Shown piece after piece: positions 2,591-56,843 of a DNA stretch of 64,000 nt. The translations under genes were made by a program, and so were the position numbers. The notes beneath the pieces were generated by a model. That model searched no databases. It had not been told where the DNA came from and saw only the letters and a list, made by a program, of their open reading frames with translations. The number at the start of each line of letters is the position of its first letter. The first letter of the stretch is position 1. Location of the stretch: NCBI RefSeq assembly GCF_048403405.1, contig NZ_CP183129.1, one strand, 5' to 3'. The stretch is from Escherichia coli. Its GTDB lineage: Bacteria > Pseudomonadota > Gammaproteobacteria > Enterobacterales > Enterobacteriaceae.

Positions 2591-2859
2591 CGTTGACTCC
2601 TTTTACAAAGTTGAACATTAAGTGTGGTCAACAATATCCACTCTTGCCAAAACATAAGAATTTTCATGTCAGACTCTTCTTAAGAAACGCTAAAACAAAC
2701 ATTGTCTAAACGCATTGCTTATTTTTATGGCCCGATGAGTAAAAAATCGACAGCGGGGTAAAAATTCGTAAAATGTTACCGATATCCAGACACTTTCTGT
2801 TATTTTTCCTACCTATTTTTTACATTTTCGATAAATTCATCTGCAAAGGGATAACCATA

Positions 2860-3960
2860 ATGTCAAATGCTCAAGAGGCGGTAAAAACCCGCCACAAGGA
2901 GACTTCGCTTATTTTCCCGGTTCTGGCGCTGGTAGTGCTGTTCCTGTGGGGAAGCAGCCAGACACTACCAGTGGTCATTGGCATCAATCTTCTTGCTCTT
3001 ATTGGTATTTTAAGTAGCGCCTTTAGTGTTGTCCGTCATGCGGACGTATTAGCCCATCGCCTGGGAGAACCTTACGGTTCGCTTATTCTTAGCCTTTCAG
3101 TGGTTATTCTTGAAGTCAGTTTGATTTCAGCTTTAATGGCAACCGGCGACGCCGCGCCAACGCTAATGCGTGATACGCTCTATTCAATCATTATGATTGT
3201 TACCGGTGGGCTGGTTGGCTTTTCATTATTGTTGGGCGGACGCAAGTTTGCCACCCAATATATGAATCTGTTTGGTATCAAGCAGTATTTAATTGCGTTG
3301 TTCCCCCTGGCGATAATCGTACTGGTATTTCCAATGGCTCTGCCTGCGGCGAATTTTTCAACCGGTCAGGCGTTACTGGTAGCATTAATTTCTGCGGCAA
3401 TGTATGGCGTATTTTTGCTGATCCAGACCAAAACGCATCAAAGTTTATTTGTCTACGAGCACGAAGATGACAGTGATGATGACGACCCGCACCACGGTAA
3501 ACCGTCTGCCCATAGCAGCCTTTGGCATGCTATCTGGTTGATTGTCCATCTGATTGCCGTTATTGCAGTCACCAAAATGAACGCCAGCCCGCTGGAGACA
3601 TTGCTCGACAGCATGAATGCCCCTGTCGCCTTTACTGGCTTCCTGGTGGCTCTGTTGATTCTGTCGCCGGAAGGTTTAGGTGCGTTAAAAGCAGTGTTGA
3701 ACAACCAGGTCCAGCGCGCGATGAATCTGTTCTTTGGTTCAGTGTTAGCAACCATTTCGCTTACCGTACCTGTCGTCACGCTAATTGCCTTTATGACGGG
3801 TAACGAATTGCAGTTTGCACTTGGTGCGCCAGAAATGGTAGTGATGGTGGCCTCTTTAGTGCTGTGCCATATCTCCTTCTCCACCGGACGTACTAACGTG
3901 CTCAATGGCGCAGCGCATCTGGCACTGTTTGCCGCCTATTTGATGACGATATTTGCCTGA
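2860..3960 (+). CDS. chaA: Ca2+/H+ (Na+/H+) antiporter ChaA
   Basis: Start taken at the internal ATG (2860) giving MSNAQEAVKTRHKETSLIFPVLAL..., 366 aa, polytopic membrane protein with the acidic DDSDDDD loop. Confidence 0.9.
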   Translation: MSNAQEAVKTRHKETSLIFPVLALVVLFLWGSSQTLPVVIGINLLALIGILSSAFSVVRHADVLAHRLGEPYGSLILSLSVVILEVSLISALMATGDAAPTLMRDTLYSIIMIVTGGLVGFSLLLGGRKFATQYMNLFGIKQYLIALFPLAIIVLVFPMALPAANFSTGQALLVALISAAMYGVFLLIQTKTHQSLFVYEHEDDSDDDDPHHGKPSAHSSLWHAIWLIVHLIAVIAVTKMNASPLETLLDSMNAPVAFTGFLVALLILSPEGLGALKAVLNNQVQRAMNLFFGSVLATISLTVPVVTLIAFMTGNELQFALGAPEMVVMVASLVLCHISFSTGRTNVLNGAAHLALFAAYLMTIFA

Positions 3961-4251
3961 CAGTTATATCTCCTCCGATGACAGAAATCGGGGGAGATAA
4001 TATAAATTCCTGCTTATTGTATTTCTTCATACTACCTGAACAGGTTGTTAATCAGAATTGCGAGCCTGTACCAGAACCTGCACGAAACCACTGCAACAGC
4101 TGTTGAAAAGCCGGAATGTACTCTTTATTGCAAACATTTCAGGGATGAAGTGAAGATGAATTGAGACGTAGTATCCACACCAAGCCGGCGTTATCCGGTG
4201 AGGCGCAATGTTGCGGGGGCTTTATCCCTGGTGGCATTGGTTGCTGGAAAG

Positions 4252-4318
4252 AGAAAACCCCCGCACGTTGAGAGGTAAAACCTGACAACAGAACGGGGGC
4301 TAATCTTGAACCATCAAC
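4252..4318 (-). ncRNA. rdl: Rdl antisense RNA, copy 1 (approximate position)
   Basis: Placed about 48 nt upstream of, and antisense to, the ldr start by analogy with K-12 ldrA/rdlA spacing (from memory); the region has complementary C5/G5 stems. Confidence 0.35.
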
Positions 4319-4365
4319 AATTCAAGAATAGCCGCAAAATGTTGTCATTACAACAAGGCGGCTAT

Positions 4366-4473
4366 ATGACGCTCGCGCAGTTTGCCATGATTTTCTGGCA
4401 CGACCTGGCAGCACCGATCCTGGCGGGAATTATTACCGCAGCGATTGTCAGCTGGTGGCGTAACCGGAAGTAA
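4366..4473 (+). CDS. ldr: Type I toxin Ldr (35 aa: MTLAQFAMIFWHDLAAPILAGIITAAIVSWWRNRK)
   Basis: ATG at 4366, TAA at 4471-4473; shorter than the 60-aa cut-off of the ORF track; matches the K-12 LdrA-type peptide. Confidence 0.85.
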   Translation: MTLAQFAMIFWHDLAAPILAGIITAAIVSWWRNRK

Positions 4474-4522
4474 GGTGAAAACGGGCGTCAGGCTGCCGTG
4501 ATGGCAATATGCGCCCGAAACC

Positions 4523-4554
4523 GGCCGCAGGTGTAACAGCCTGCGGCCTTTTTT
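4523..4554 (+). terminator. Rho-independent terminator of ldr copy 1
   Basis: Hairpin ggccgcag(N10)ctgcggcc followed by a T6 run. Confidence 0.8.
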
Positions 4555-4786
4555 GTCTTTATCTCTTCCACAAGTAAATATTGGCAACCCGAGCTGGAAG
4601 CATCATCCAGAGCACTCATGAAACGACTGTAACAGCTGTTGAAAAACCGGAATGCACTCTTCATTGCATACATTTCAGGGATGAAGTGAAGATGAATTGA
4701 GTCGTAGTATCCACACCAAGCCGGCGTTATCCGGTGAGGCGCAATGTTGCGGGGGCTCTATCCCTGGTGGCATTGGTTGCTGGAAA

Positions 4787-4853
4787 GAGAAAACCCCCGC
4801 ACGTTGAGAGGTATAACCTGACAACAGAACGGGGGCTAATCTTGAACCAGAAC
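4787..4853 (-). ncRNA. rdl: Rdl antisense RNA, copy 2 (approximate position)
   Basis: Same placement logic as copy 1, shifted by the 535-bp repeat period. Confidence 0.35.
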
Positions 4854-4900
4854 AATTCAAGAATAGCCGCAAAATGTTGTCATTACAACAAGGCGGCTAT

Positions 4901-5008
4901 ATGACGCTCACGCAGTTTGCCATGACTTTCTGGCACGACCTGGCAGCACCGATCCTGGCGGGAATTATTACCGCAGCGATTGTCAGCTGGTGGCGTAACC
5001 GGAAGTAA
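4901..5008 (+). CDS. ldr: Type I toxin Ldr, second copy (MTLTQFAMTFWHDLAAPILAGIITAAIVSWWRNRK)
   Basis: ATG at 4901, TAA at 5006-5008; differs from copy 1 by two residues. Confidence 0.85.
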   Translation: MTLTQFAMTFWHDLAAPILAGIITAAIVSWWRNRK

Positions 5009-5057
5009 GGTGAAAACGGGCGTCAGGCTGCCGTGATGGCAATATGCGCCCGAAACC

Positions 5058-5089
5058 GGCCGCAGGAGTAACAGCCTGCGGCCTTTTTT
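5058..5089 (+). terminator. Rho-independent terminator of ldr copy 2
   Basis: Hairpin ggccgcag(N10)ctgcggcc followed by a T6 run. Confidence 0.8.
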
Positions 5090-5129
5090 GTATCCGGCCC
5101 CATGAATAAATATCCTCCGGCATAGCCGG

Positions 5130-5815
5130 AGGTTTTTCAAATGCGCCTATAAGGCTCTCTTACCAGCCGCGCCCTAACAGGCGCACACGATCTGACATTT
5201 GCATCCAACTTCGTTACTTACGGCCCGTAAACGGGCTGCCCGGATAGGGAATCGATAACTGCTCTCCCATTTTATCCTCTTCAAGCTGGTGCTTTATGTA
5301 ATCCTGTATCTTCGCCGTGTTCTTACCCACCGTATCGACGTAGTACCCTCTGCACCAGAACTCCCTGTTCCTGTATTTGAATTTCAAATCACCAAACTGC
5401 TCGTAAAGCATCAGACTGCTTTTCCCTTTCAGATATCCCATAAAGCCGGATACGCTCATTTTGGGCGGGATCTCCACAAGCATATGGATATGATCTGCAC
5501 AGCATTCAGCTTCCAGAATCCGTACACTTTTCCACTCACACAGCTTTCTCAAAATACTGCCTATTGCTCTACGCTTCTCTCTGTAGAACACCTGTCTTCG
5601 GTATTTTGGCGCAAAAACTATGTGATATTTACAGTTCCATCGGGTGTGCGCTAAGCTCTTTTCGTTCCCCATTGGGACCCCCTTTTGATTTCTTGTTTGA
5701 CACTTGCAGTTGCCAGACCGCAAGGTGTTTTAACAAATCAAAAGGGGTTTTAATAACTGGCTTAAAGCTGAAAGCTTTCCGGAACCCCCAGCCTAGCTGG
5801 GGGTTTTCTGTGCAC
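5130..5815 (-). mobile_element. IS200-family insertion sequence (ends approximate)
   Basis: Contains a 152-aa IS200-type TnpA and, at its upstream end, the perfect hairpin aacccccagcctagctgggggtt (5783-5805). Sits between the ldr repeats and the kdsA stop, where my recollection of K-12 has no IS. Confidence 0.75.
5214..5672 (-). CDS. tnpA: IS200/IS605-family transposase TnpA (Y1 HUH type)
   Basis: Start at the ATG (complement of 5670-5672) with a GGGGG ribosome-binding site; MGNEKSLAHTRWNCKYHIVFAPKYRR...HIHMLVEIPPK is the classic IS200 TnpA sequence. Confidence 0.9.
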   Translation of the reverse strand: MGNEKSLAHTRWNCKYHIVFAPKYRRQVFYREKRRAIGSILRKLCEWKSVRILEAECCADHIHMLVEIPPKMSVSGFMGYLKGKSSLMLYEQFGDLKFKYRNREFWCRGYYVDTVGKNTAKIQDYIKHQLEEDKMGEQLSIPYPGSPFTGRK

Positions 5816-5866
5816 AAAAAAGCCTTAACGCAGAACGCTAAGGCTTTAGTTTTCAAGCAAAAAAGT

Positions 5867-6730
<864 letters not shown>

Positions 6731-6756
6731 TTAATCTTGAGTAAAATGTCGATTAA

Positions 6757-7566
6757 TTAATGCAGCACAATATGTTTATGCGCGATGTTATTTATTTGCG
6801 CACGGATCATTTCGCTGATCGGGTCTTCCGGACACTGTTCAACGAAATAACTTAAATCGTTCAACGCAACGTGTTCGCAATCCAGTTGCGCATAAATCAA
6901 CCCGCGATCGCGAATTTCATAGGGATCTTCCGGGTTGAATTGTAATAAAGCTTCGCTGGTGCGTAACGCCAGCTCCATCTGATTTTCTTCCATCAACGAA
7001 GCTTTGAGTGTATCCAGCAATTTGCGGATTACCTCAATGTTATCAGCTTCATCAAGGTCTTCATAAAACAGTTCCGCCGACGGGCTGATATTTCCCTTTA
7101 ACCATACATCCAGCATATGTTCGCTTAACGATTCACCGTTAAAAGGATTAATCAGCCAAATTTCGCCATCCGGACATTCAATGCGCAATATCAGCTGCGT
7201 CGGGAAAATCACCGGCAATAGCGGCAAATCGAGACGATTCGCGACCCATAATAAAACGGCACCTAATGATACCGCACTGCCCTGTCGATTCTTTAACACC
7301 TGGTCCAGCCATAATGCATCGGAAAGGCGATAAACGCCGCGTGAGGCTTTAAATCCCCAGTCGCCGTAAAACAGCGCGATCAGTTTTTCCAACTGCTCTT
7401 CTAAAGGCAGAAGCTGGCTGATTTCTTCCTTCGCCAGACTAACGAGACGCTCCAGTTCGTCGTAAACATCTTGCGAGGGAAAATCGCGGCGGATTGCTTC
7501 GCAAGCCAGGATCATGCCTTCGCACAATGGCGCTTTATTAAATTCGAAATCAGCTAACGATCTCAT
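6757..7566 (-). CDS. sirB1: SirB1 (YchA), invasion-gene-regulator homolog
   Basis: 269 aa; position between kdsA and sirB2 matches K-12. Confidence 0.85.
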   Translation of the reverse strand: MRSLADFEFNKAPLCEGMILACEAIRRDFPSQDVYDELERLVSLAKEEISQLLPLEEQLEKLIALFYGDWGFKASRGVYRLSDALWLDQVLKNRQGSAVSLGAVLLWVANRLDLPLLPVIFPTQLILRIECPDGEIWLINPFNGESLSEHMLDVWLKGNISPSAELFYEDLDEADNIEVIRKLLDTLKASLMEENQMELALRTSEALLQFNPEDPYEIRDRGLIYAQLDCEHVALNDLSYFVEQCPEDPISEMIRAQINNIAHKHIVLH

Positions 7567-47206: not shown

Positions 47207-48900
47207 ATCCCCCGGTTAATCATACAGGCGGCAAATGCCCGGAAAGCGTTGCTCATGCTATTGTCGCTGGCGTCGGCACGAATATCATTGAGTTTCTGGC
47301 GCAACGTGGTCGCAAGATCAGGGTTATCGACAGCGATATCGTCAAGCAGGGCGTTACTCAGGTTGAGCTCGTTATCAAGGTCTGCAGCGGCAGCGGTAAT
47401 TTCATGATCTGCCTTTTGCGTTTCTTGATAAACCCGATCGGCTGTTTCGCTTGCTGGGCGAGCCGTTTCATCAACCTGCCGTGCCGGATTCTGTATGCGA
47501 TGGATGGCGCGTTCACGCAGTGCCGGTTTGTGCAGTTCATAGAAGGGCTCAACATCTGGGCTACGTCCTTCCATCATGTGTGCCAGCGCAGCGCGATACG
47601 CCTGCTGGTTCACGCTCCAGTCAGCATCCCTGATGGCGCTTGCGGCAGTGCGAACTGCGCCAGCGACCGGCGACATCTGCATGCCGTCCAGGATCTGCTG
47701 CGCACGCTCGGAAATGGTGACTTTCAGGTCGTCGGGGATCTCGCCGCGGGAAATCTGAGACTGGCGCCAGCGCGCCTGCTCTGCTGTCGCGTTCTGCTCC
47801 AGCGATGTGTTGATCTCCTGATTGCGTGCAGCGATGGCGTCTTTCTCGGCCTGAATCTCTTTCAGTGCCCTAGAGCGCGCATCCTTAAACTTCATCCGCT
47901 TCCCCTGATACTTTTTGGTGCGCTGTTGCAGCGTCGCATCAAGCGAGTCAGCATGACGTTGATTAGCCGCAAGCTCGGCACGCAGGTCGGCAACGTTACC
48001 GATCTGCCCGCTCTGTAACTCCTGCTGGCGCGCCATATAGTCAGGAACCACGTCGTCATAAGCCCGGCTGTATGCGTAGCTCTCCGCTTCACTGGAAATG
48101 GCCGCCGCCAGATCTGCGTTAGCGCCAACCTCAGGGATATTCACGCCCGCCGGAATGTTGTCAGGCGTTATCACCGGGGTTGGCTGCGCATCGCCAGAAA
48201 ACTCCGGGGACTCTCCCGTTGCAGCATCGGGAACGCGACGCGGTCGCACGATATCGGCGATAAGGCCGCCGCCGGCATGCATTAGACCGCCAGCCATCGT
48301 GTTAAAGAAAGTACTTTCCAACGCGTTGCTATAGGTGAAGTCGTCACCTTCCGCCGCCGCTGCCAGCCCGGTAAGCGGCACGGTCACCACCGCCTGCGCT
48401 GCCCCCATGCGTGCACCAGCAACAAATCGCTCGCCAAATCGGCCAAGCACAGAAGCTGCCTTTGCTTCTCCAGCGAACGGAACCAGCGCCAGCGCCACGT
48501 TACCAGGATCTGCCATTGAACCAGCTAGGCTGGCTGCGAAATTAAGCGGCGTGGCTACCCACCCGCTCGGTGCCGACATCGCAATCTGCTGGCGTGCCAG
48601 AGAATCTTTGCGTTCGGCAATAACATGATCGAGAAAAGCCTGCGTAACGCCAGAATCTGGCACGTTTATGCTCTTTACGCCGTACTGCTTCAGGAGCTCA
48701 TCTGCGTCCTGCTTACTGATAACTGTAGAGTTTGGGTCATTCGCCAGCGAGTCGGCCTGCGCAAAGCGGTAGCCGGACATGACCGGCCCCTCTTCAAATC
48801 CCTGCTTAAGGGAAGAAAGCAGCGATTCGCCAAGCCCTGCTGGCGCGTTGCCAATTGGCTGGTTAATGCCCTGTCCCGGATCATCTGTGTAAATTGGCAT
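47203..48900 (-). CDS. Large Ala/Gly-rich protein of unknown function (565 aa), second gene of cargo operon
   Basis: Translationally coupled on both sides; contains hydrophobic Gly/Ala-rich segments. Confidence 0.75.
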   Translation of the reverse strand: MPIYTDDPGQGINQPIGNAPAGLGESLLSSLKQGFEEGPVMSGYRFAQADSLANDPNSTVISKQDADELLKQYGVKSINVPDSGVTQAFLDHVIAERKDSLARQQIAMSAPSGWVATPLNFAASLAGSMADPGNVALALVPFAGEAKAASVLGRFGERFVAGARMGAAQAVVTVPLTGLAAAAEGDDFTYSNALESTFFNTMAGGLMHAGGGLIADIVRPRRVPDAATGESPEFSGDAQPTPVITPDNIPAGVNIPEVGANADLAAAISSEAESYAYSRAYDDVVPDYMARQQELQSGQIGNVADLRAELAANQRHADSLDATLQQRTKKYQGKRMKFKDARSRALKEIQAEKDAIAARNQEINTSLEQNATAEQARWRQSQISRGEIPDDLKVTISERAQQILDGMQMSPVAGAVRTAASAIRDADWSVNQQAYRAALAHMMEGRSPDVEPFYELHKPALRERAIHRIQNPARQVDETARPASETADRVYQETQKADHEITAAAADLDNELNLSNALLDDIAVDNPDLATTLRQKLNDIRADASDNSMSNAFRAFAACMINRGM

Positions 48901-48901
48901 G

Positions 48902-51523
48902 TTATCGTCCTGATTGCTGGCCGTTCTGGAAAATGTTAATCAGGTTGTCGCGCTGACTTTCTGCGCTGTATTCCTTAGACTGTCCGGGAGTATATTTCAC
49001 CGGAGTATCAATGAACTTGGTAATGCTGTTCCATACTGATCGGTTGGTTGTTCCCAGTTTCGCCAGATCGTTGAACGGCACCGTAATCGGGTTGCCGTCG
49101 GCACCGTTGACGATCAGCCCGTTGAGCATCAGGGTAAGTCCTGTTTCGTCGCTGTTGGTAACCCACTGCGCATTATCACGAATGCGGGAGATACTCTGCT
49201 CACGGTTGACCTCATCAGGTAGCCTTGGGTCACCAATAAGCGGCATAATCTGATCTGCTGACAGGTTTTTCAGATACGCATTGGCACCATCGTTAACGTC
49301 ACGAATATCTATCCCTGCACGCTTAGGTAGCCGCCAAGTGCCATTGGTCTGATACTGCTCGCCGAGGATGTCCTGATACGCCTGTTTTGCTGCATCAGAC
49401 GCCGACATTCCGCGCTGCATGTTGATGTAAGTAAGTCGTTTTCCCTGCTCGTTGAAGTTATTCCACACGGCAGTGCCACCAGGCTGAACAACCATCGTGC
49501 CAGCAAAATCTTTCGATTGGTCATTCCATGACGAGTCGGCGCTATCCGCGTCGGTTTTCTCAAGACTGCCGCGTAAGTCAGCAGTTTTAACGCTACGGTT
49601 TTGCCAGAGCGCATTTGCCGCGCGCGGGTTCTCGGTAGCCATGACAACCTGCAACGCAGGATAAGCGCTCTTCTGAACCTGCTGCATCACCTGATCCGAG
49701 TATTTTCCGAACGACTGCGCCACCGACTGAATGGCCTTTACGCTAGATTCCTGCGTGTTGTCAATACGCTGCAGTACGTCGTTGACCATGGACTCCGGTA
49801 AAACTTTTTTGCTCATTATCCCCAGGCGGTCTTTTTCAGACTGTATGCGGGAAACTAGGTATTCACCAGATGAAGGGTCATTGAGGTACTGCTGGAATGC
49901 AGCCTGCACAACCGGAGAGTTTTGTTGCAGCCATGCCCCCGGATCCGCTTCCCGCGCCTTCAGTACCTGCCCAAGCTTGACCTTTGCCGATGCATAAAGC
50001 TCGGCTTTGTATTTAAAGTCAGGGTCGTTTTCCTGCGGTGCCATTGCCTGCACGGCGGCGGTACCCTGCTGGACGTTGCCCTGCATGATGGTCTGATAAA
50101 CAGGTTGTAGCGTCATTGCCTGCTGGTATTGCTGGAAGGTTTTTTCCATCTGCAGGCGCTCGGCAGGCGCTGCCTGAAGCGGCATAACGGCGGCCCATTC
50201 GTGCGCTGAAATAGGCGTCACCTGCTTACCGGCCTCAATTTTGGATAGGTCGTCCTGCATTCGACTCTGTAGCGCAACGCGACCGGCTGAAGCCTGCATG
50301 TCGTACATGCCAGCAACCTTGCTCATCATCTGCGACTTTTTGTCCGGACTCATGGCGTTCCAGAATGGCTGTGCGATGAGGTTTTCCATCGTCGCAGATC
50401 CAGGAATAGCTCCAGCACTGCCAGTTACTTTTGCCACATAATTGCGCGTCTCGTCGTATGGGATAGCTGCGGCAAACTGGGCGTTACTGACTTCGCCTGT
50501 GCGCGGATCGCCAATCTGTTTAATCCAGCCGTCAACCTTTCCTGGGCCAGCGTTATAGGCAGCTACTGCCAGAACCGGGTTATTGTCGTATTTCTTCATC
50601 TGCGCGCCGAAATAAGCTTGCCCCAAGCGGGCATTATAGCGCGGGTCATTCAACCATTTATCTCGGTCCCACGGCACACCAGCAAGGCGGGCAGCTTCGG
50701 GGCCAGTATCTTCCGTCACCTGCGCTACGCCAACAGCGCCTTTTGGCGACACCAGAGGTGTTCCGTCCTTTCCGTACTGATTTCCGCCACTCTCCTGCCA
50801 GATTATTGCAGAGAATAACTGCGCCTCACTCGGTGTATCGGTTACCTCAATCTTGCCGTTCGGCCCCATCATCTGTTGATACATCGGCACATACCACGCC
50901 TCCGCCGCACCGTTCGCGGCATTCTCGCGCCACGAAACCCAGTTCTGTTCGATCTCTTCCTGACTCTGGCCGTGTGCTTCGCCGTAAGCGATGATGCTAT
51001 GATATGCCTTCAATCCTGCCTGGTTTGCCATTGTCGGGTTACGGAACTGCATCGATAGGTTTTTTAGTGTCGCATCCTGCATATCCGCCTCATACTGGCG
51101 AACCTGTCCTATTTCGTACCTCCCAGCCTGCGTAGTGAACTGAATGCGCTGCTGCTGCGCCTGCTGCATGAAAGCATTACGAGCCTGTTCATCCGGCAGC
51201 GACATAGCCAGTTGTTCGACCTGAGCATCAAACTGCTGCGTATACTCCTGACCTTTTCCAATAGCATTTTTCCCTTTCAGGTTAAGCAAACCTGTTTCAG
51301 GGTTATTCAGCAGATCGCTGCCTGTCTGACTGAGTTTAAGGGATGCCTCCTGAACCAAGGCAATATTGGCACGCTGTTTTGCCTGACCCAGAACATCAAT
51401 TGCCTCTGCTCCTGCACGAACAAAAGCATCACTAATACCTGGCTGAGAAAACGTCTGCAAGCCTGCTGACTGAACTCCACGGCTCTCAACCTGACGTCCG
51501 GATACTGTTGGTACGACTGGCAT
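48902..51523 (-). CDS. Large protein (873 aa) with an internal lytic-transglycosylase (SLT-like) motif
   Basis: GGAGG ribosome-binding site before the ATG; motif AIIWQESGGNQYG...GVAQV...AAYNAGPGKV at about aa 230-330, resembling soluble lytic transglycosylase active sites. Confidence 0.8.
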   Translation of the reverse strand: MPVVPTVSGRQVESRGVQSAGLQTFSQPGISDAFVRAGAEAIDVLGQAKQRANIALVQEASLKLSQTGSDLLNNPETGLLNLKGKNAIGKGQEYTQQFDAQVEQLAMSLPDEQARNAFMQQAQQQRIQFTTQAGRYEIGQVRQYEADMQDATLKNLSMQFRNPTMANQAGLKAYHSIIAYGEAHGQSQEEIEQNWVSWRENAANGAAEAWYVPMYQQMMGPNGKIEVTDTPSEAQLFSAIIWQESGGNQYGKDGTPLVSPKGAVGVAQVTEDTGPEAARLAGVPWDRDKWLNDPRYNARLGQAYFGAQMKKYDNNPVLAVAAYNAGPGKVDGWIKQIGDPRTGEVSNAQFAAAIPYDETRNYVAKVTGSAGAIPGSATMENLIAQPFWNAMSPDKKSQMMSKVAGMYDMQASAGRVALQSRMQDDLSKIEAGKQVTPISAHEWAAVMPLQAAPAERLQMEKTFQQYQQAMTLQPVYQTIMQGNVQQGTAAVQAMAPQENDPDFKYKAELYASAKVKLGQVLKAREADPGAWLQQNSPVVQAAFQQYLNDPSSGEYLVSRIQSEKDRLGIMSKKVLPESMVNDVLQRIDNTQESSVKAIQSVAQSFGKYSDQVMQQVQKSAYPALQVVMATENPRAANALWQNRSVKTADLRGSLEKTDADSADSSWNDQSKDFAGTMVVQPGGTAVWNNFNEQGKRLTYINMQRGMSASDAAKQAYQDILGEQYQTNGTWRLPKRAGIDIRDVNDGANAYLKNLSADQIMPLIGDPRLPDEVNREQSISRIRDNAQWVTNSDETGLTLMLNGLIVNGADGNPITVPFNDLAKLGTTNRSVWNSITKFIDTPVKYTPGQSKEYSAESQRDNLINIFQNGQQSGR

Positions 51524-51619
51524 TAGTAACCTCCTATTTTGAATCGGGAGTCAGAATTCATAAAACCTGAGTTAGATAACATTGGCGTCCCTCTGCTTTG
51601 ATGCTGTACCAGCGATTCA

Positions 51620-51826
51620 TTACTCACCCCCCGATGCAAAACCATTCTGATTAAGCCAGGCGTTTACGGCATGTCTGACAATCTGCGCCACGCCTGGTAA
51701 TGGCTGATCAGGGTGATTGTTCACATGGTCGATTCTGTACTGCTTAATGCGCATCACGGTCTGTGCATCCAGATGAACGGAACCACCTCTGACATCGCCT
51801 GTGTTCAGGTCGTTAATACAATTCAC
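51620..51826 (-). CDS. Small protein (68 aa), possible DNA-binding regulator upstream of the cargo operon
   Basis: ORF only; C-terminal helix-like AQIVRHAVNAWL; function is inferred from position. Confidence 0.4.
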   Translation of the reverse strand: MNCINDLNTGDVRGGSVHLDAQTVMRIKQYRIDHVNNHPDQPLPGVAQIVRHAVNAWLNQNGFASGGE

Positions 51827-51918
51827 AGCAATTTCCTCTTACTGACTAAACTATGCACATTATTGATCTGAAAAAGTGGTAGATAAACATATTTCTATCA
51901 CAAAAACAGATTGATTGA

Positions 51919-51942
51919 TTTCAGCCCCAAAAAAAGCCGGAT
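51919..51942 (-). terminator. Rho-independent terminator separating the replication module from the cargo operon
   Basis: Minus-strand hairpin agccgg-agcaat-ccggct followed by U7 (plus-strand A7 at 51919-51925). Confidence 0.75.
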
Positions 51943-52192
51943 TGCTCCGGCTCTGTGCTTACTTCTGGTAGTTACGCCATACTGATTTCCCGATCCCATC
52001 TATCCCCATTTCTTTTTCAGTGCGTTTAAGCGACCGTTTCAGGTCTTCTAAATTATCCGGTTGCTTCGGTGGCCTCTGTGCCTTCCTGGAACATTCCAGT
52101 CGTCGCATTGATATGTAATACCGTTCCTTATCAGTTTCCCAACTGCATTACTTCACCCCATCGCGCCGCCGCTCTTCGGTACAGGGTTTTAG

Positions 52193-52609
52193 TTAGCCTC
52201 CGACTCTTCCGTAGCGCTGTTCTGGTGGATTCACATAGCCCCTTTCTTGCAGGTATTCGCGAATATCAGACATCAGGAGACGGTTAACCGTGCTCTTGTC
52301 TTTTCTCCGGTAAAGGCGTCTGGTGATCATGAAGTAGTTAGCAATGACCTCCGGTATATCCCTGACGCTGATACATGCTGTATGCTGGTCAATAGCTTCA
52401 ATCATCTCTTCACGAGTTACAAAAGTCTGGCGTAAACGAGTGATCACACCATGTACATCTGAACGATCATTTATACGCTTATTTTGGCGCTTCGCGCTCT
52501 CGACTGTGACACTGACAATAATGTCAACTCTTTGTTTTTCCGCCATTTCATCCACAATGTGATCACCTGCACGGCGACCATGTGCGTGATCATTTCTTAC
52601 TATTTCCAT
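52193..52609 (-). CDS. Hypothetical protein (138 aa)
   Basis: ORF overlapping the FinO-like gene end by 20 nt; the true start may be the internal MAEKQ. Confidence 0.45.
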
Positions 52610-53087
52610 TCATCTCCTCCAGTAGTTTTCCTGCGTGCGTCTGTTGTAGTGGTGTTACCTCGCCGCACGGCTGGCCTTTCAGGTCGTAACGCGCGCCACC
52701 AGCTACCAGGGCGCGGTAATAGCGCGGAGTCTGCACATAACGCGCCAGCGTTGCGCGTAGTGTTCCCTGTCCGAGTGAAATACCTCTCGCGGCAATATCC
52801 TGTATCAGGTCGTCAAATATCCCCACCTTAAGCGGCTTAGGTGATTCCGGGCTGAATAATTCAGGCCATAGCTCAATAAGACGGTTAACGCGTCTGCGGT
52901 TTTTACGCTGCTGTTTGGTCATACGCCGCCGCGGTGTTGCTCCTGTGAGCTTCTGCTGTGTGTTCTGGTTATCTGGCATCACTTTATGCGCCGATGTGGT
53001 TTTATTCTGCTGCTGCGCCGCCTGTGCTGTTTTCTGCGGCGTGCCGTAAATGCCCTTCGGTTTTCTGTTTATGGTCAGCTTTGTCAT
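52590..53087 (-). CDS. ProQ/FinO-domain RNA-binding protein
   Basis: [14 protein letters not shown]...[35 protein letters not shown] aligns by eye with E. coli ProQ (PLKIGIFQDLVDRV...[35 protein letters not shown]). Confidence 0.75.
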
Positions 53088-53123
53088 GCCTTCCCCTGTA
53101 ATTACTCTGTTCGCTGTTGTGAA

Positions 53124-53546
53124 TTAAAACGGTATCCCGTCCCCGTACGGATCGTCGTTACCCGCCTGTTGTTTTGCCCTGTTCAGTGCGTCAGTAGCCT
53201 GCCCTTGCTGGCCTTTTTTGCCGCCCGGTCGCGCCGTTCTCGCACTGATTACGCTGTCTGCGATAACCTGCCAGCCCTGCCGCGTTTCGCCGTTCTGGCC
53301 TGTCCACTGGCTTACCTGCATGTTACCCGCCACGCTCACCAGTTCGCCTTTGTGGTGTTTTGCCAGTGCGTCGGCCTGTCTGCCAAACGCCAGGACGGAT
53401 AACCACATCGTCGCCGTTCCGTCATCTGCCTGATTGCATGGAAGGGGGACCGCCATACTCGCCATCGCCATTTGTGTGCCCTTGCTGGTGGTCTTTAACT
53501 GCGGGTCAGCCACCAGCCGCCCGTAAGCTGATATTTGCGCCGTCAT
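53124..53546 (-). CDS. ssb: Single-stranded DNA-binding protein (SSB-like)
   Basis: OB-fold-like core (YGRLVADPQL ... WLSVLAFGRQA) and the acidic C-terminal tail DDPYGDGIPF, which resembles the SSB DDDIPF tip. Confidence 0.7.
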   Translation of the reverse strand: MTAQISAYGRLVADPQLKTTSKGTQMAMASMAVPLPCNQADDGTATMWLSVLAFGRQADALAKHHKGELVSVAGNMQVSQWTGQNGETRQGWQVIADSVISARTARPGGKKGQQGQATDALNRAKQQAGNDDPYGDGIPF

Positions 53547-53609
53547 GCTGTTTGTTCTCCGGTTTTAACGTGATAGTTACGCTTGTTTACACTCTTACAG
53601 TGAAATTTT

Positions 53610-53732
53610 GCGGGTTACAATCGCACATTTGCGGGTTATAACTGCCGTTTTGCGGGTTACGTGCGGGTTATTGATTTCCTTTTTAATCATGCAGTTAATT
53701 AACTTATGCACAGGATAACCCGCATAACCCGC
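53610..53732. repeat. Iteron cluster 2: four direct GCGGGTTAY copies (53610-53671) plus two tandem inverted copies (53715-53732)
   Basis: Read directly; lies between the primase/helicase stop and the ssb start. Confidence 0.85.
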
Positions 53733-53756
53733 AACTTTTTACCTCACACAGGGAAG

Positions 53757-55883
53757 TTAATCTTCTGCTTCAGGCTGGAACATCAGCACGTAAAAAATAT
53801 GCTGCTTCCCGCCAATCCTGCCGAGCGCCTTTTTCTTGTAACGGCGGTCGCCTCCCGCTTCCAGCATTCCGGCAGCACTCAACGCGCGGGCAAAGTGAGA
53901 CGGATTAAATCCCTGTGCTATCTCACCCTCAAACACATGCGGGAACGTGTAAAAACGGAACTCGTCATCTTCGTTTCTGATACTCCCCTTTCTGTATCCG
54001 GCAAGGTCTTTAATCGGTAAATCACGCTCGTCGCTGTTTGGATAGGGAAGGTATCGACTGAACCCGAACGACGACAAAAACGCCTCAGCCTGTTCAACCA
54101 TCTGTTTAAATTCCCTGTTGCCCGTGCCGAATTCCTTCACCCAGGCATTAAAGTTATGCTGAACTGCATCACGGCACGCCTGAACATCCCAGCCTGTAAC
54201 ATGACCGGAAAGCACAAGCGCGGCCTCCAGTACGGCGAATCTTTCCCCCACACGGTGAACCTGCTCGCCGTAGCTCTCCGGTATCAGGTTGCGCCACCGC
54301 TCGCGACATGCCCTTACCGCGTCCTTTGCCTCCTGCTGGTGACCTGCCAGCCATTTAACCCACTCACGACCTGCCGCCCCGTGATTTTCTGTCCAGGCAT
54401 CTTTTAACGCGTCTGCGTGCGCCTTTCCGGTGCTGTATTCGTGAAACTGCGATGCCTTTTCCATCGGCACGTTAAGCAGACGGACAAGCTGCCCCGCTTT
54501 AATTTTTATCCCTTCCGTTTTGAGGAATGTTTCAACGTCCATTTCTCCGGTGCTGATTGCCACCGTGCGCCAGTGTTTTATCTCCCTGTTGCCGCCGTCC
54601 TTCGCCCCCTGTAATTTCCCGGAACCGTTAAACAGCGTATAGGCTGACGTGGACACCTCCCGCGCGTTTCCGGCCTGGCCTATTTCATCCAGGGGTAACA
54701 GCCCGTCATTATGTGCTTCGGCCTCGTTGGCGATACCTAACGCCGTTCCGTACCAGGTCAGCCGTTGCGCGTCCGGCTCTCCCCATAAACTTGATGCAAT
54801 GTTCTGTGTGGTGGTTTTACCTGCTGATGATTGCTCAAAAAGATGAACCCCGAAGCCGTCAGCACCCACCAGCCCGATTAATGGTGCGGATAGCGATACC
54901 GCCACACCCAGCATCATGGACGGATTACCACCAGCCAGCCGTGCCACGGTATCGCGCCAGCCCTCCGCTGTTCCCGCCACGGAATAGCCATTAACAGCGG
55001 CAGTTTTTCCGGTAAACAGGATGGGTTTCTCTGATTCACCAATGACCGAACCATCCGGCATGATGTACGCACCAAAATGCCACCCCGTTGTTGTGCTTAA
55101 CTGCCATTCCTCATGGTTTCCGCTTAACTGCATCCAGTCAGCCAGGATAGCCCTGTATTTGCCGTTGGTCGTCACGTTAAGGCCGTGGTCTTTCAGCAAC
55201 CGCCAGCCGTCACGGTCACCAATGCCTCCGCACGGGACCGCCATTGTAATGACCTCATGGTTTGCTGGTTTTTTCCAGCGCATCACGCGGTAATGCTCTT
55301 TGCCGATTGTTCCTGTTCCCAGTAGTTCAAGCGGAGAACATAACCACGTCTCAGGCCGGATAATTTCGCCTGACTGCTTGTCCACTTTGGGCGTTACCCA
55401 GAAAACACCATCGACGCGACTTTCAACACGAGGCTTTAATTCGTCATCATAATTTCCGGTGAAATTTGTCTTCGCCGGAAGGTTGATCACCAGACTGTTA
55501 CCGCGTTCCGCATCATCCTTCAGTCCAGCCATGCGCGGTGTCCAGTCCTCCGGCTGCTGATCAACAAAGCTGCGGTAGCAACGCGCCTCCTTCACACCCG
55601 CCACTGCAAGCAGTGTCGCTATCTGTGTAAGGTGCTGCTCTGATATTTCACCAGCACGATAAACGCGCACGTAATAGCGCCCTTTGTCGATGATTTGCGT
55701 GTCTGCCAGACTCGCCAGTTGTTCCGGTCCAAGAATAACTGGATGTGTATCATCTGCCGCAATATGCTTTCCGGCCCATTCGCTCCACTCTTTCGCATGT
55801 GCCCAGGCATCACTACCCGCAAAGATAATCACCTCCGTCATTTTGTCTTTCGGCTGGTGCTTTAAATTCGGTGCGCGTTTCAT
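53757..55883 (-). CDS. Phage/plasmid primase-helicase (P4 alpha-like replication protein)
   Basis: 708 aa; Walker A-like EQSSAGKTT; size and position downstream of alpA and upstream of the iterons. Confidence 0.7.
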   Translation of the reverse strand: MKRAPNLKHQPKDKMTEVIIFAGSDAWAHAKEWSEWAGKHIAADDTHPVILGPEQLASLADTQIIDKGRYYVRVYRAGEISEQHLTQIATLLAVAGVKEARCYRSFVDQQPEDWTPRMAGLKDDAERGNSLVINLPAKTNFTGNYDDELKPRVESRVDGVFWVTPKVDKQSGEIIRPETWLCSPLELLGTGTIGKEHYRVMRWKKPANHEVITMAVPCGGIGDRDGWRLLKDHGLNVTTNGKYRAILADWMQLSGNHEEWQLSTTTGWHFGAYIMPDGSVIGESEKPILFTGKTAAVNGYSVAGTAEGWRDTVARLAGGNPSMMLGVAVSLSAPLIGLVGADGFGVHLFEQSSAGKTTTQNIASSLWGEPDAQRLTWYGTALGIANEAEAHNDGLLPLDEIGQAGNAREVSTSAYTLFNGSGKLQGAKDGGNREIKHWRTVAISTGEMDVETFLKTEGIKIKAGQLVRLLNVPMEKASQFHEYSTGKAHADALKDAWTENHGAAGREWVKWLAGHQQEAKDAVRACRERWRNLIPESYGEQVHRVGERFAVLEAALVLSGHVTGWDVQACRDAVQHNFNAWVKEFGTGNREFKQMVEQAEAFLSSFGFSRYLPYPNSDERDLPIKDLAGYRKGSIRNEDDEFRFYTFPHVFEGEIAQGFNPSHFARALSAAGMLEAGGDRRYKKKALGRIGGKQHIFYVLMFQPEAED

Positions 55884-56182
55884 TTCTTGCCCCTGAATGC
55901 GTTAATCATGTTCTTTATTACCTGAATATTTGCCCGTGCTTTCTCTTTACTGGTGGGCTTACTGCGTGGTACTGCACATACCAGTGAAAAATCACGCCGG
56001 AACTGATGAACGGGCATCACACAGTCATAGTCGTACCCTGCGCGGCGGTATGTAATGTGCCGTTCATACACGGAATTAATAACCACGCTGTCACCATATT
56101 TATCCCGGAAAATATCCCCGATCCTGATTTTCGGGTGAGTCTGTCCGCTGGCATTTAAGCCAGTAAATTTAATCTTCTTCAT
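55880..56182 (-). CDS. Hypothetical protein (100 aa)
   Basis: ORF with 4-nt overlap onto the primase start. Confidence 0.5.
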   Translation of the reverse strand: MKKIKFTGLNASGQTHPKIRIGDIFRDKYGDSVVINSVYERHITYRRAGYDYDCVMPVHQFRRDFSLVCAVPRSKPTSKEKARANIQVIKNMINAFRGKK

Positions 56183-56184
56183 GT

Positions 56185-56442
56185 TTATTTCCCGGTGTGA
56201 GGTTCTTCTTTATATTTATGGGCTAACAAATCTGGTAATTGCCTGTATTTATCCTCGGCAATATATTCAGAATAATCGACAGCACTGTTCAGTATATCTA
56301 ACGCCGTTTCATGCTCCAGATTCGAAACTATAAGGAACGTTGCTACTTTTAGCATATTCGCGATATGCAAAAGAGCATCAATTTCATTTTTTGGCGCTTC
56401 ACTGAATTTTTGCTCCAGAAGAATAAATCGTTCATCACGCAT
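56185..56442 (-). CDS. Hypothetical protein (85 aa)
   Basis: ORF 2 nt upstream of the 100-aa gene. Confidence 0.5.
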   Translation of the reverse strand: MRDERFILLEQKFSEAPKNEIDALLHIANMLKVATFLIVSNLEHETALDILNSAVDYSEYIAEDKYRQLPDLLAHKYKEEPHTGK

Positions 56443-56638
56443 AGTATTCCCCCTGACGGATGCGGGCAGTAAATACCATCACGCAGCCAGCCGGGGATTG
56501 CTGACGGGCTTCCTGTTCGCTGGCGGCCTCGATGTGTATTACGCGTGGTTGTGCGGTGCTCAGGGCGATAAAACGCCAGATGTATTTATTCAGGTTGTGC
56601 GAGTCCCGCCCTTGCGGGTGTGTGGTATGATTTAACAT
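56435..56638 (-). CDS. Hypothetical small protein (67 aa)
   Basis: ATG (complement of 56636-56638) preceded by GAGG at the proper spacing. It is the 3-prime segment of an otherwise implausible 345-aa ORF in the track. Confidence 0.4.
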   Translation of the reverse strand: MLNHTTHPQGRDSHNLNKYIWRFIALSTAQPRVIHIEAASEQEARQQSPAGCVMVFTARIRQGEYYA

Positions 56639-56735
56639 AGCTACCTCGATACGCTTTCTATCGTTGGTGGTTAGACGCCCTGCATGTGTTGCGAGCACTG
56701 CGGGGCGTTGCTTAATTTGAGCAATGCAACCCAAA

Positions 56736-56771
56736 CTGTGCGCACAGATTAAAATCATGTGTGCGCACATG
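56736..56771. promoter_or_regulatory. Two GTGCGCAC-core palindromic operators 20 bp apart in a divergent promoter region
   Basis: ctgtgcgcacag (56736-56747) and catgtgtgcgcacatg (56756-56771); further copies at 56805-56816 (half site) and 57069-57081. Confidence 0.6.
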
Positions 56772-56843
56772 TCAATACTTAACTTCTCACTTTTTTTGCT
56801 GTATTGTGTGCGCCCATCAAATCCATTTAAGTGAGGTGTACCA

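What the first reader, a model, noticed from the sequence alone, without database searches (positions are those of the whole stretch)
4086..5092. Only two ldr/rdl type I toxin-antitoxin units, with divergent toxin variants
K-12 carries three tandem ldr/rdl units at this locus, from memory; this window has two (period 535 bp). The toxin peptides differ at two positions (A4T and I9T). The second unit's downstream sequence diverges immediately after its terminator and runs into the IS200, hinting that the IS or a recombination event removed or replaced a third unit.
Basis: partly seen in the sequence, partly recalled or inferred. Interest (0 to 1): 0.35.

Follow-up and report, generated by a model that had tools for sequence, protein, structure and literature searches.

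The report
Ordinary two-copy ldr/rdl toxin-antitoxin array
This is a normal, intact two-copy version of the E. coli ldr/rdl toxin-antitoxin repeat between chaA and kdsA, a copy-number state shared by roughly a third of sequenced E. coli, and the neighbouring IS200 element is an unrelated later insertion that removed nothing.

Summary
Two ldr/rdl units lie 535/536 bp apart between chaA and kdsA. Their 35-aa toxins differ only at A4T and I9T. K-12 has three units at this locus.

The interpretation that IS200 removed or replaced a third unit is not supported.
- An IS-free genome (PS_131_S11) has the same two units and the same two peptides. It is 99.3% identical up to the insertion point.
- Its empty site, CCCCATG|AAAAAAGCC, shows that the 711-bp IS200C (5105-5815) is a clean insertion with no target duplication and no flanking loss. 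It sits just after the T-tail of the kdsA terminator.
- IS-free two-unit arrays also occur in O157:H7, O145, O104:H4 and a chicken isolate.

Among 5,426 complete E. coli genomes, about 25% lack an inter-unit spacer (one unit, by inference), about 30% have two units and about 45% have three or more. Window unit 1 matches K-12's ldrC position and unit 2 the ldrA position. The extra K-12 unit (ldrB) is a mosaic. Copy number therefore varies through recombination among repeats, and the direction of change is unresolved.

Both toxins match Pfam Ldr_toxin and both Rdl RNAs exceed the Rfam threshold. The whole arrangement is 100% identical in an existing RefSeq genome. It is ordinary and already known.

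The parts
2860..3960 (+). chaA (sodium-potassium/proton antiporter), the left boundary gene of the locus
   Evidence: The ORF ending at 3960 is annotated as chaA in the 100%-identical genome TUM14771.
4071..4556 (+). ldr/rdl unit 1 (chaA-proximal), positional orthologue of the K-12 ldrC unit
   Evidence: Repeat core at 96.3% identity to unit 2. It is closest to first-position units of other genomes and is first-type at all diagnostic sites.
4366..4473 (+). ldr toxin gene 1, 35 aa, MTLAQFAMIFWHDLAAPILAGIITAAIVSWWRNRK (identical to K-12 LdrA/LdrC, WP_000170955.1)
   Evidence: Pfam Ldr_toxin 86 bits, E 1.7e-24.
4252..4317 (-). rdl antitoxin RNA 1, antisense to the ldr 5' UTR; its 5' end lies 48 nt upstream of the ldr start codon
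   Evidence: Rfam RF01813, 83.6 bits against a gathering score of 50. Stable stem-loop with a U tail, z = -4.5.
4523..4556 (+). intrinsic terminator of ldr mRNA 1
   Evidence: Terminator scan: 10-bp stem with 8 GC pairs, followed by a T6 run.
4557..4606 (.). inter-unit spacer, found only between units
   Evidence: Only about 54% like the chaA-side flank of unit 1. A 70-mer across it is present in 4,065 of 5,426 genomes, with a median of 2 places per genome.
4607..5091 (+). ldr/rdl unit 2 (kdsA-proximal), positional orthologue of the K-12 ldrA unit
   Evidence: 98.5% identical to the K-12 ldrA unit body. It clusters with last-position units and is last-type at all diagnostic sites.
4901..5008 (+). 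ldr toxin gene 2, 35 aa, MTLTQFAMTFWHDLAAPILAGIITAAIVSWWRNRK (T4/T9 variant, WP_000176713.1)
   Evidence: Pfam Ldr_toxin 87.2 bits. An exact 60-mer covering both substitutions occurs in 197 records. The same peptide is in IS-free PS_131_S11 and EC17CM2.
4788..4853 (-). rdl antitoxin RNA 2; differs from rdl 1 at three 5'-terminal positions and one apical-loop position
   Evidence: Rfam RF01813, 87.0 bits. Fold z = -5.3.
5058..5091 (+). intrinsic terminator of ldr mRNA 2, intact
   Evidence: Terminator scan.
5092..5104 (.). native unique spacer after the last unit, shared with IS-free genomes
   Evidence: Empty-site comparison with L001, L002 and L003.
5105..5815 (-). IS200C insertion sequence, 711 bp, inserted without target duplication or flanking loss directly after the T-run of the kdsA terminator
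   Evidence: The empty site in L001 is CCCCATG|AAAAAAGCC. The ends were defined by aligning four independent insertions. This junction is present in 262 of 5,426 genomes.
5214..5672 (-). tnpA, the Y1 (HUH) transposase of IS200C
   Evidence: Annotated as WP_000526135.1 in TUM14771. Pfam Y1_Tnp 130.7 bits.
5682..5805 (-). IS200 left-end / tnpA 5' UTR structured RNA (Rfam STnc490), including the left-end hairpin
   Evidence: Rfam RF01405, 146.1 bits against a gathering score of 56.
5816..5844 (-). kdsA intrinsic terminator (hairpin 5822-5844 plus T6 run on the minus strand), intact and abutting the IS left end
   Evidence: Read directly from the sequence. Inverted repeat I1. The same sequence is present in IS-free loci.
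5867..6721 (-). kdsA (3-deoxy-8-phosphooctulonate synthase), the right boundary gene
   Evidence: ORF, annotated as kdsA in TUM14771.

Best explanation
The region is an intact two-unit allele of the chromosomal ldr/rdl type I toxin-antitoxin array that sits between chaA and kdsA in E. coli.

How each unit works, inferred from K-12 work and not tested here:
- Each unit encodes a stable mRNA for a 35-aa membrane toxin (Ldr).
- On the opposite strand it encodes a roughly 66-nt antisense RNA (Rdl).
- Rdl pairs with the ldr 5' UTR and keeps toxin synthesis off.

The number of units at this locus is a common polymorphism in the species, ranging from one to at least three and up to about seven. It is generated by unequal homologous recombination and gene conversion among the 96-98% identical repeats.

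The window's two units are the positional counterparts of K-12's outer units. Unit 1 corresponds to ldrC and unit 2 to ldrA. K-12's middle unit (ldrB) is the extra one.

The adjacent IS200C is a separate, later insertion of 711 bp. It lies exactly after the T-tail of the kdsA terminator, with no target duplication and no loss of flanking DNA. It marks a sub-lineage of about 5% of sequenced genomes and is not the cause of the two-unit state.
For: Shown here:
- Repeat structure and peptides.
- Pfam Ldr_toxin at 86 and 87 bits for both peptides.
- Rfam rdlD at 83.6 and 87.0 bits against a gathering score of 50, with both Rdl folds stable.
- Both ldr terminators are intact.
- K-12 has three units.
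- IS-free PS_131_S11 has the same two units and peptides, is 99.3% identical up to 5110 and resumes at 5816.
- IS-free two-unit arrays occur in O145, O157:H7, EC17CM2 and O104:H4, and a one-unit locus occurs in AH19D088.
- The inter-unit spacer is present in 4,065 of 5,426 genomes, at 6,515 chromosomal places, median 2 and maximum 6 per genome. In an even sample of 60 records, 26 had one junction and 34 had two.
- Units cluster by position, not by genome.
- Window unit 1 is first-type and unit 2 last-type at every diagnostic site.
- The IS ends were defined from four independent insertions, each abutting a terminator hairpin and T-run.
- The IS junction is in 262 genomes and the whole 2.4-kb arrangement is in 258, one of them 100% identical.

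From the literature:
- Ldr loci evolve by lineage-specific duplications and a few losses (PMC2887945).
- Rdl overlaps the ldr 5' UTR and is thought to act like Sok (PMC4147584).
Against: - Nothing here tests expression or toxicity. The A4T substitution has no functional data that I found.
- The simple sigma-70 scan found no promoter in the region, so promoter positions rest only on about 97% identity to the K-12 units.
- The direction of copy-number change (gain in K-12-like lineages or loss here) is not resolved. Only three diagnostic body sites separate first-type from last-type units, and the units are mosaic.
- The census uses a 70-mer and megablast. Diverged spacers could be missed, and per-genome counts are estimated from totals and a 60-row sample.
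Confidence: 0.9

Rival explanations
1. IS200C insertion, or IS-mediated recombination, deleted or replaced a third ldr/rdl unit.
For: The IS lies only 13 nt after the last unit, and K-12 has a third unit.
Against: - The filled and empty sites differ only by the 711-bp element. The 13-nt native spacer on the left and the A6 run, kdsA terminator and kdsA on the right are all retained.
- IS-free PS_131_S11 has the same two units and peptides at 99.3% identity.
- Several unrelated IS-free lineages also have two units.
- There is no second IS200 copy in the window that could have served as a recombination partner.
Confidence: 0.02
2. The window's lineage descends from a three-unit ancestor and lost the middle (ldrB-type) unit by unequal crossing-over between repeats, independently of the IS.
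For: - Three units is the commonest state, at about 45% of genomes.
- Repeats 96-98% identical and 535 bp apart are good substrates for RecA-dependent deletion.
- The spacer before window unit 2 is identical to the K-12 ldrB-unit spacer over the first 55 columns, whereas its body matches the ldrA unit at 98.5%. A ldrB/ldrA recombinant would look like this.
Against: - The spacer evidence rests on two SNPs that may be specific to K-12.
- Unit 2 is last-type at the three diagnostic body sites (columns 81, 97 and 106) where K-12's and NCTC86's middle units are first-type. A crossover would therefore have to fall within the first few bases of homology.
- K-12's middle unit is itself a mosaic. Its peptide is identical to the first-unit peptide of two-unit O157:H7, which reads more easily as a duplication from a two-unit array.
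Confidence: 0.3
3. Assembly artefact: a three-unit array was collapsed to two units in the assembly the window comes from.
For: Tandem 535-bp repeats can collapse in short-read assemblies.
Against: - The two units differ at about 18 positions and are resolved.
- 258 complete genomes, including one 100% identical over 2.4 kb, show the same arrangement.
- The two-unit state is annotated in many independent complete genomes.
Confidence: 0.02

Closest known systems
E. coli K-12 LDR-A/B/C array (ldrA-rdlA, ldrB-rdlB, ldrC-rdlC) between kdsA and chaA (Kawano et al. 2002; reviewed in PMC4147584 and PMC7472228)
   Same: - Same locus and orientation, and a unit length of about 535 bp.
- Same layout in each unit: a 35-aa Ldr ORF, an Rdl antisense RNA whose 5' end lies 48 nt upstream of the start codon, and an intrinsic terminator.
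- Unit 1 peptide is identical to LdrA/LdrC.
- Unit bodies are 97.3% (ldrC position) and 98.5% (ldrA position) identical to K-12.
   Different: - Two units rather than three. No counterpart of the mosaic middle (ldrB) unit.
- The kdsA-proximal toxin carries A4T and I9T. T9 is also found in K-12 LdrB.
- A 711-bp IS200C lies between the array and kdsA.
Two-unit ldr arrays of other E. coli: PS_131_S11, TUM14771, EC17CM2, O157:H7, O145, O104:H4
   Same: - TUM14771 is 100% identical over 3700-6100, including the IS.
- PS_131_S11 has the same two peptides without the IS.
- EC17CM2 has the same T4/T9 peptide in the same position.
   Different: O157:H7, O145 and O104:H4 carry other peptide variants (T9/G29, T9/D29, T9/S29 and I9/G29) and other haplotypes at the Rdl 5' end.
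IS200 of Salmonella and E. coli (IS200/IS605 family, IS200C isoform)
   Same: - Y1_Tnp transposase.
- About 710 bp with no terminal inverted repeats.
- Left-end hairpin and structured tnpA 5' UTR matching Rfam STnc490 at 146 bits.
- No target-site duplication.
   Different: Nothing notable. This copy is simply one lineage-specific site, present in 262 of 5,426 genomes.
hok/sok type I toxin-antitoxin system
   Same: Long 5' UTR with an antisense RNA that does not cover the toxin's start codon. The literature proposes leader-ORF coupling by analogy (PMC4147584). There is a weak sub-threshold Rfam sok match over the ldr 5' UTR (27-30 bits against a gathering score of 59).
   Different: It is not a member. 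The toxin matches Pfam Ldr_toxin and not Hok, and the sok match is well below threshold.

Membership tests
Ldr/Rdl (LDR) type I toxin-antitoxin | 35-aa hydrophobic peptide of the Ldr family, with a conserved Trp after the transmembrane helix and a charged C-terminus | tested here: met
   Both peptides match Pfam PF13940 Ldr_toxin over residues 1-35 at 86 and 87.2 bits, against a cut-off of 27. Both contain ...IVSWWRNRK.
Ldr/Rdl (LDR) type I toxin-antitoxin | Cis-encoded antisense RNA (Rdl) of about 66 nt opposite the ldr 5' UTR, not overlapping the start codon | tested here: met
   Rfam RF01813 full-length matches at 4252-4317 and 4788-4853 on the minus strand, at 83.6 and 87.0 bits against a gathering score of 50. 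Each ends 48 nt upstream of its ldr ATG. Both folds are stable.
Ldr/Rdl (LDR) type I toxin-antitoxin | Long direct repeat of about 530 bp at the chaA-kdsA locus | tested here: met
   Period 535/536 bp. Same flanking genes as K-12.
Ldr/Rdl (LDR) type I toxin-antitoxin | Peptide is toxic on overexpression and the cognate Rdl relieves the toxicity | not testable with these tools
   Known for LdrD and LdrA in K-12 (PMC4147584, PMC7472228). The unit 1 peptide is identical to LdrA. The T4/T9 variant is untested.
Ldr/Rdl (LDR) type I toxin-antitoxin | Transcription of a stable ldr mRNA and an unstable Rdl RNA | not testable with these tools
   No expression data. The consensus promoter scan found nothing. 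The terminators are present.
IS200/IS605 family insertion sequence (IS200C) | Single Y1 HUH transposase gene (tnpA) | tested here: met
   Pfam PF01797 Y1_Tnp at 130.7 bits. Annotated as an IS200C family transposase in RefSeq.
IS200/IS605 family insertion sequence (IS200C) | About 0.7 kb, with subterminal hairpins rather than terminal inverted repeats | tested here: met
   711 bp by alignment of four copies. Left-end hairpin lies within the STnc490 match. Right-end hairpin at 5114-5132.
IS200/IS605 family insertion sequence (IS200C) | Insertion without target-site duplication | tested here: met
   The empty site CCCCATG|AAAAAAGCC and the filled site differ only by the element.
IS200/IS605 family insertion sequence (IS200C) | Transposition activity | not testable with these tools
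   The tnpA ORF is intact at 152 aa. Activity is unknown.

The most novel reading that the evidence does not exclude
The two units may be functionally non-equivalent, not redundant.

- Their Rdl RNAs differ at three positions of the single-stranded 5' end and at one apical-loop position. These are the kinds of positions that give cognate-only repression among the Sib/Ibs paralogues (PMC2943612).
- A 1-nt indel at about 4314, inside the Rdl/ldr overlap, changes what an upstream TTG codon reads into. In unit 1, TTG 4306 is in frame with ldr and gives a 55-aa extended product. In unit 2, TTG 4842 opens a 20-codon leader ORF whose stop overlaps the ldr start (ATGA).

If Rdl acts through a leader ORF, as proposed for ldrX, the two haplotypes could be regulated by different mechanisms and be insulated from each other's antitoxin.
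Probability: 0.12. Interest if true: 0.4.

Novelty: already known. Interest (0 to 1): 0.1.

Why it matters
It matters little in itself. It is a correct annotation point: two intact ldr/rdl modules, one IS200C, no gene loss.

The one useful by-product is a rough census showing that K-12's three-unit array is only one of three common states. About 25% of complete E. coli genomes appear to have one unit, about 30% two, and about 45% three or more. K-12's ldrB unit is a mosaic. People who use K-12 as the reference for type I toxin-antitoxin dosage, or who build clean deletions, should not assume three copies in other strains.

The haplotype differences at the Rdl 5' end and in the upstream reading frame could be used to test the unproven leader-ORF model of Rdl action.

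Tried and rejected
- Tandem Repeats Finder returned nothing because its longest period is 500 bp and the unit is 535 bp. The repeat finder and BLAST were used instead.
- The sigma-70 consensus scan found no promoter in 3950-5900. By eye, a weak 8/12 candidate for rdl (TTGTAA, 17 nt, TATTCT on the minus strand, about 4325-4353) is identical in both units, but it is unverified.
- I tried to read Kawano et al. 2002 (DNA Res) and Kawano 2012 (RNA Biol) for published strain comparisons and the ldrX proposal. Neither is held.
- One literature query was rejected for syntax. A search on IS200 target-site preference returned nothing specific.
- I tried to read a crossover footprint in K-12's middle unit. 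Only three body sites are diagnostic, and the rest of the apparent switch is the position-specific spacer, so no direction of change can be claimed.
- The weak Rfam sok matches over the ldr 5' UTR (27-30 bits against a gathering score of 59) were rejected as membership evidence.
- I ran no further search on outgroups. The cost was not justified for this finding.

Full report
**What is in the sequence**

Window 3400-6800 reads as follows:
- the 3' end of chaA (+ strand, stop at 3960)
- two tandem repeat units
- a short unique spacer
- an IS200-type element with tnpA on the minus strand
- kdsA on the minus strand (5867-6721)

The repeat finder reports two direct-repeat blocks with spacings of 536 and 535 nt. 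Pairwise alignment shows the difference is a single-base indel at about 4314. BLAST puts the strongly conserved core at 4071-4556 and 4607-5091, at 96.3% identity. The 50 nt between the cores (4557-4606) are only about 54% like the chaA-side flank of unit 1 and act as an inter-unit spacer.

Each unit contains:
- a 35-codon ORF, at 4366-4473 and 4901-5008
- an intrinsic terminator, with stems at 4523-4548 and 5058-5083 followed by T-runs
- a full-length match to the Rfam rdlD antitoxin model on the opposite strand, at 4252-4317 (83.6 bits) and 4788-4853 (87.0 bits), against a gathering score of 50

Both peptides match Pfam Ldr_toxin end to end at 86 and 87 bits. They differ only at A4T and I9T. 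Both Rdl sequences fold into the expected long stem-loop with a U tail, with z-scores of -4.5 and -5.3.

**Comparison with K-12**

A unit-by-unit alignment gives these results:
- Window unit 1 corresponds to the chaA-proximal K-12 unit (the ldrC position). The flank is 94.5% identical and the body 97.3%.
- Window unit 2 corresponds to the kdsA-proximal K-12 unit (the ldrA position). The body is 98.5% identical.
- The K-12 middle unit (ldrB) is only 95.8-96.0% identical to either window unit.

**The IS is a bystander**

A megablast of 3700-6100 against 5,426 complete E. coli genomes found 258 genomes with the whole arrangement, one of them (TUM14771) 100% identical.

It also found genomes that match on both sides but lack the IS. 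In PS_131_S11 the match runs at 99.3% identity from 3900 to 5110 and resumes at 5816. That genome has the same two Ldr proteins, WP_000170955.1 and WP_000176713.1, and no transposase.

The empty site reads CCCCATG AAAAAA GCCTTAACG. The filled site reads CCCCATG [AATAAATATCC...GTGCAC] AAAAAA GCC.

I aligned four independent IS200C insertions: this one and copies near caiF/carB, hypT and frmA/fghA in other strains. The alignment shows that the shared sequence starts at the AA[T/C]AAATATCC end and stops at GTGCAC. The element is therefore window 5105-5815, 711 bp, inserted without target duplication and without loss of any flanking base.

On the tnpA strand the left end directly follows the T6 run of the kdsA terminator hairpin (5816-5844). 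The other three copies likewise abut a hairpin plus T-run. The 13 nt at 5092-5104 are the normal spacer after the last unit in IS-free genomes.

The transposase matches Pfam Y1_Tnp at 130.7 bits. The tnpA 5' UTR matches Rfam STnc490 at 146 bits. An 81-mer across the left junction is present in 262 genomes, which points to a lineage-specific insertion. There is no second IS200 copy in the window.

**Two units is a common state**

IS-free two-unit arrays are annotated in O145 RM12275-C1, O157:H7 Z1768, the chicken isolate EC17CM2 and O104:H4 2009EL-2050. A one-unit locus is seen in AH19D088, and three units in K-12 and NCTC 86.

A 70-mer across the inter-unit spacer gave the following:
- It is present in 4,065 of 5,426 genomes, at 6,515 chromosomal places.
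- The median is 2 places per genome and the maximum is 6.
- In the evenly spaced sample of 60 records, 26 had one junction and 34 had two.

From both the totals and the sample, roughly 25% of genomes lack an inter-unit junction, which I read as one unit. About 30% have two units and about 45% have three or more. These are estimates. Megablast with a 70-mer could miss diverged spacers.

The literature already describes Ldr evolution as lineage-specific duplication with a few losses, and lists differing Ldr counts per genome (PMC2887945).

**How the units relate**

In a neighbour-joining tree of 19 units from nine genomes, the units cluster by position and not by genome. All chaA-proximal units group together and all kdsA-proximal units group together. 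The two middle units form a separate mosaic pair.

At the sites where first-position and last-position units differ consistently, window unit 1 is first-type throughout and window unit 2 is last-type throughout. Neither unit therefore shows a recombinant scar.

K-12's middle unit has the inter-unit spacer, as any non-first unit must, but it is first-type at the three diagnostic body sites. Its peptide is identical to the first-unit peptide of two-unit O157:H7. This reads more naturally as a duplication that created the third unit. With only three diagnostic sites and evident gene conversion, I cannot fix the direction of change. I give loss from a three-unit ancestor a probability of about 0.3.

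**The peptide variants**

Across the sampled units the toxin varies at position 4 (A/T), position 9 (I/T), position 26 (A/V) and position 29 (S/G/D). T9 is the K-12 LdrB state, so I9T is a standing polymorphism.

The T4/T9 combination is already a RefSeq protein, WP_000176713.1. It occupies the kdsA-proximal position in three of the sampled genomes: TUM14771, PS_131_S11 and EC17CM2. The exact 60-mer covering both substitutions is in 197 records. Both changes lie in the N-terminal segment before the hydrophobic stretch LAAPILAGIITAAIV. I found no functional data for A4T.

**Mechanism**

By homology with K-12, each unit should produce a stable ldr mRNA with a long 5' UTR and an unstable Rdl antisense RNA. 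Rdl pairs with that UTR upstream of the start codon and prevents toxin synthesis. The proposed route is through a leader ORF, as in hok/sok, but this remains unproven (PMC4147584). Ldr peptides insert in the inner membrane. Overexpression of LdrD or LdrA causes loss of ATP synthesis, nucleoid condensation and cell death (PMC4147584, PMC7472228).

What is shown here is that all the sequence parts are intact in both units. Expression, toxicity and repression are inferred.

The IS should be transcriptionally insulated. Its left-end hairpin faces kdsA, its right-end hairpin (5114-5132) is terminator-like in both directions, and both host terminators are intact.

**Verdict**

The feature is a known family in a known, common allelic state, and it is 100% identical to an existing RefSeq genome. 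Interest is low.

The most novel reading the evidence leaves open is that the two units are not interchangeable. Their Rdl RNAs differ at 5'-end and loop positions. A 1-nt indel also changes an upstream TTG ORF from an in-frame extension of Ldr in unit 1 to a 20-codon leader ORF overlapping the ldr start in unit 2. This could be used to test the leader-ORF model.

Noticed in passing
window 42757-61776: A segment of about 19 kb is absent at this point from the otherwise 99.97%-identical genome TUM14771. There the flanks are contiguous next to a hypothetical gene between dadX and cvrA. The segment matches an element that carries a tyrosine integrase and genes for a DUF927 protein, an AntA/AntB antirepressor, a Rha regulator and an SLT transglycosylase. 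That element sits at other chromosomal positions in other E. coli, at 99.9% identity in two genomes and 99.7-99.8% over 59% of the query in several APEC/ExPEC strains. In the rows listed, no complete genome matched the element together with these flanks. It looks like a small integrative phage-like or satellite element in an unusual site.
   Followed up: partly
window 5105-5815, with L011, L012 and L013: In all four independent IS200C insertions compared, the left end (the tnpA 5' side) directly follows a run of 5-7 T that is itself preceded by a GC-rich hairpin, that is, the tail of an intrinsic terminator (kdsA, carB and two others). This suggests that IS200C targets single-stranded T-tails of terminators. 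I did not find a paper stating this for E. coli IS200C in the searches I ran.
   Followed up: partly
window 4306-4369 and 4842-4904: A 1-nt indel at about 4314, inside the Rdl/ldr overlap, changes the frame of an upstream TTG codon. In unit 1, TTG 4306 reads in frame into ldr and would give a 55-aa product. In unit 2, TTG 4842 opens a 20-codon ORF (LNQNNSRIAAKCCHYNKAAI) whose TGA stop overlaps the ldr ATG (ATGA), a translational-coupling layout. Both haplotypes recur in other genomes: CATCAA, against C-AGAA or A-CAGC.
   Followed up: partly
window 4208-4285 and 4744-4821: A 25-codon ATG ORF in the ldr 5' UTR (MLRGLYPWWHWLLERENPRTLRG[K/I]T) is conserved in both units. Its 3' end overlaps the Rdl-complementary region. 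It is a second candidate for the proposed ldrX leader ORF. No evidence of translation.
   Followed up: no
window 2773-2859: The chaA reading frame is open for 29 further codons upstream of the annotated start, giving an ORF of 395 aa from 2773 against an annotated ChaA of 366 aa. This is probably just an in-frame upstream ATG and not a real extension.
   Followed up: no
E. coli genome collection: Some genomes carry up to six inter-unit junctions, implying about seven tandem ldr/rdl units. Twelve inter-unit junction matches lie on plasmids, so ldr arrays are not strictly chromosomal.
   Followed up: no
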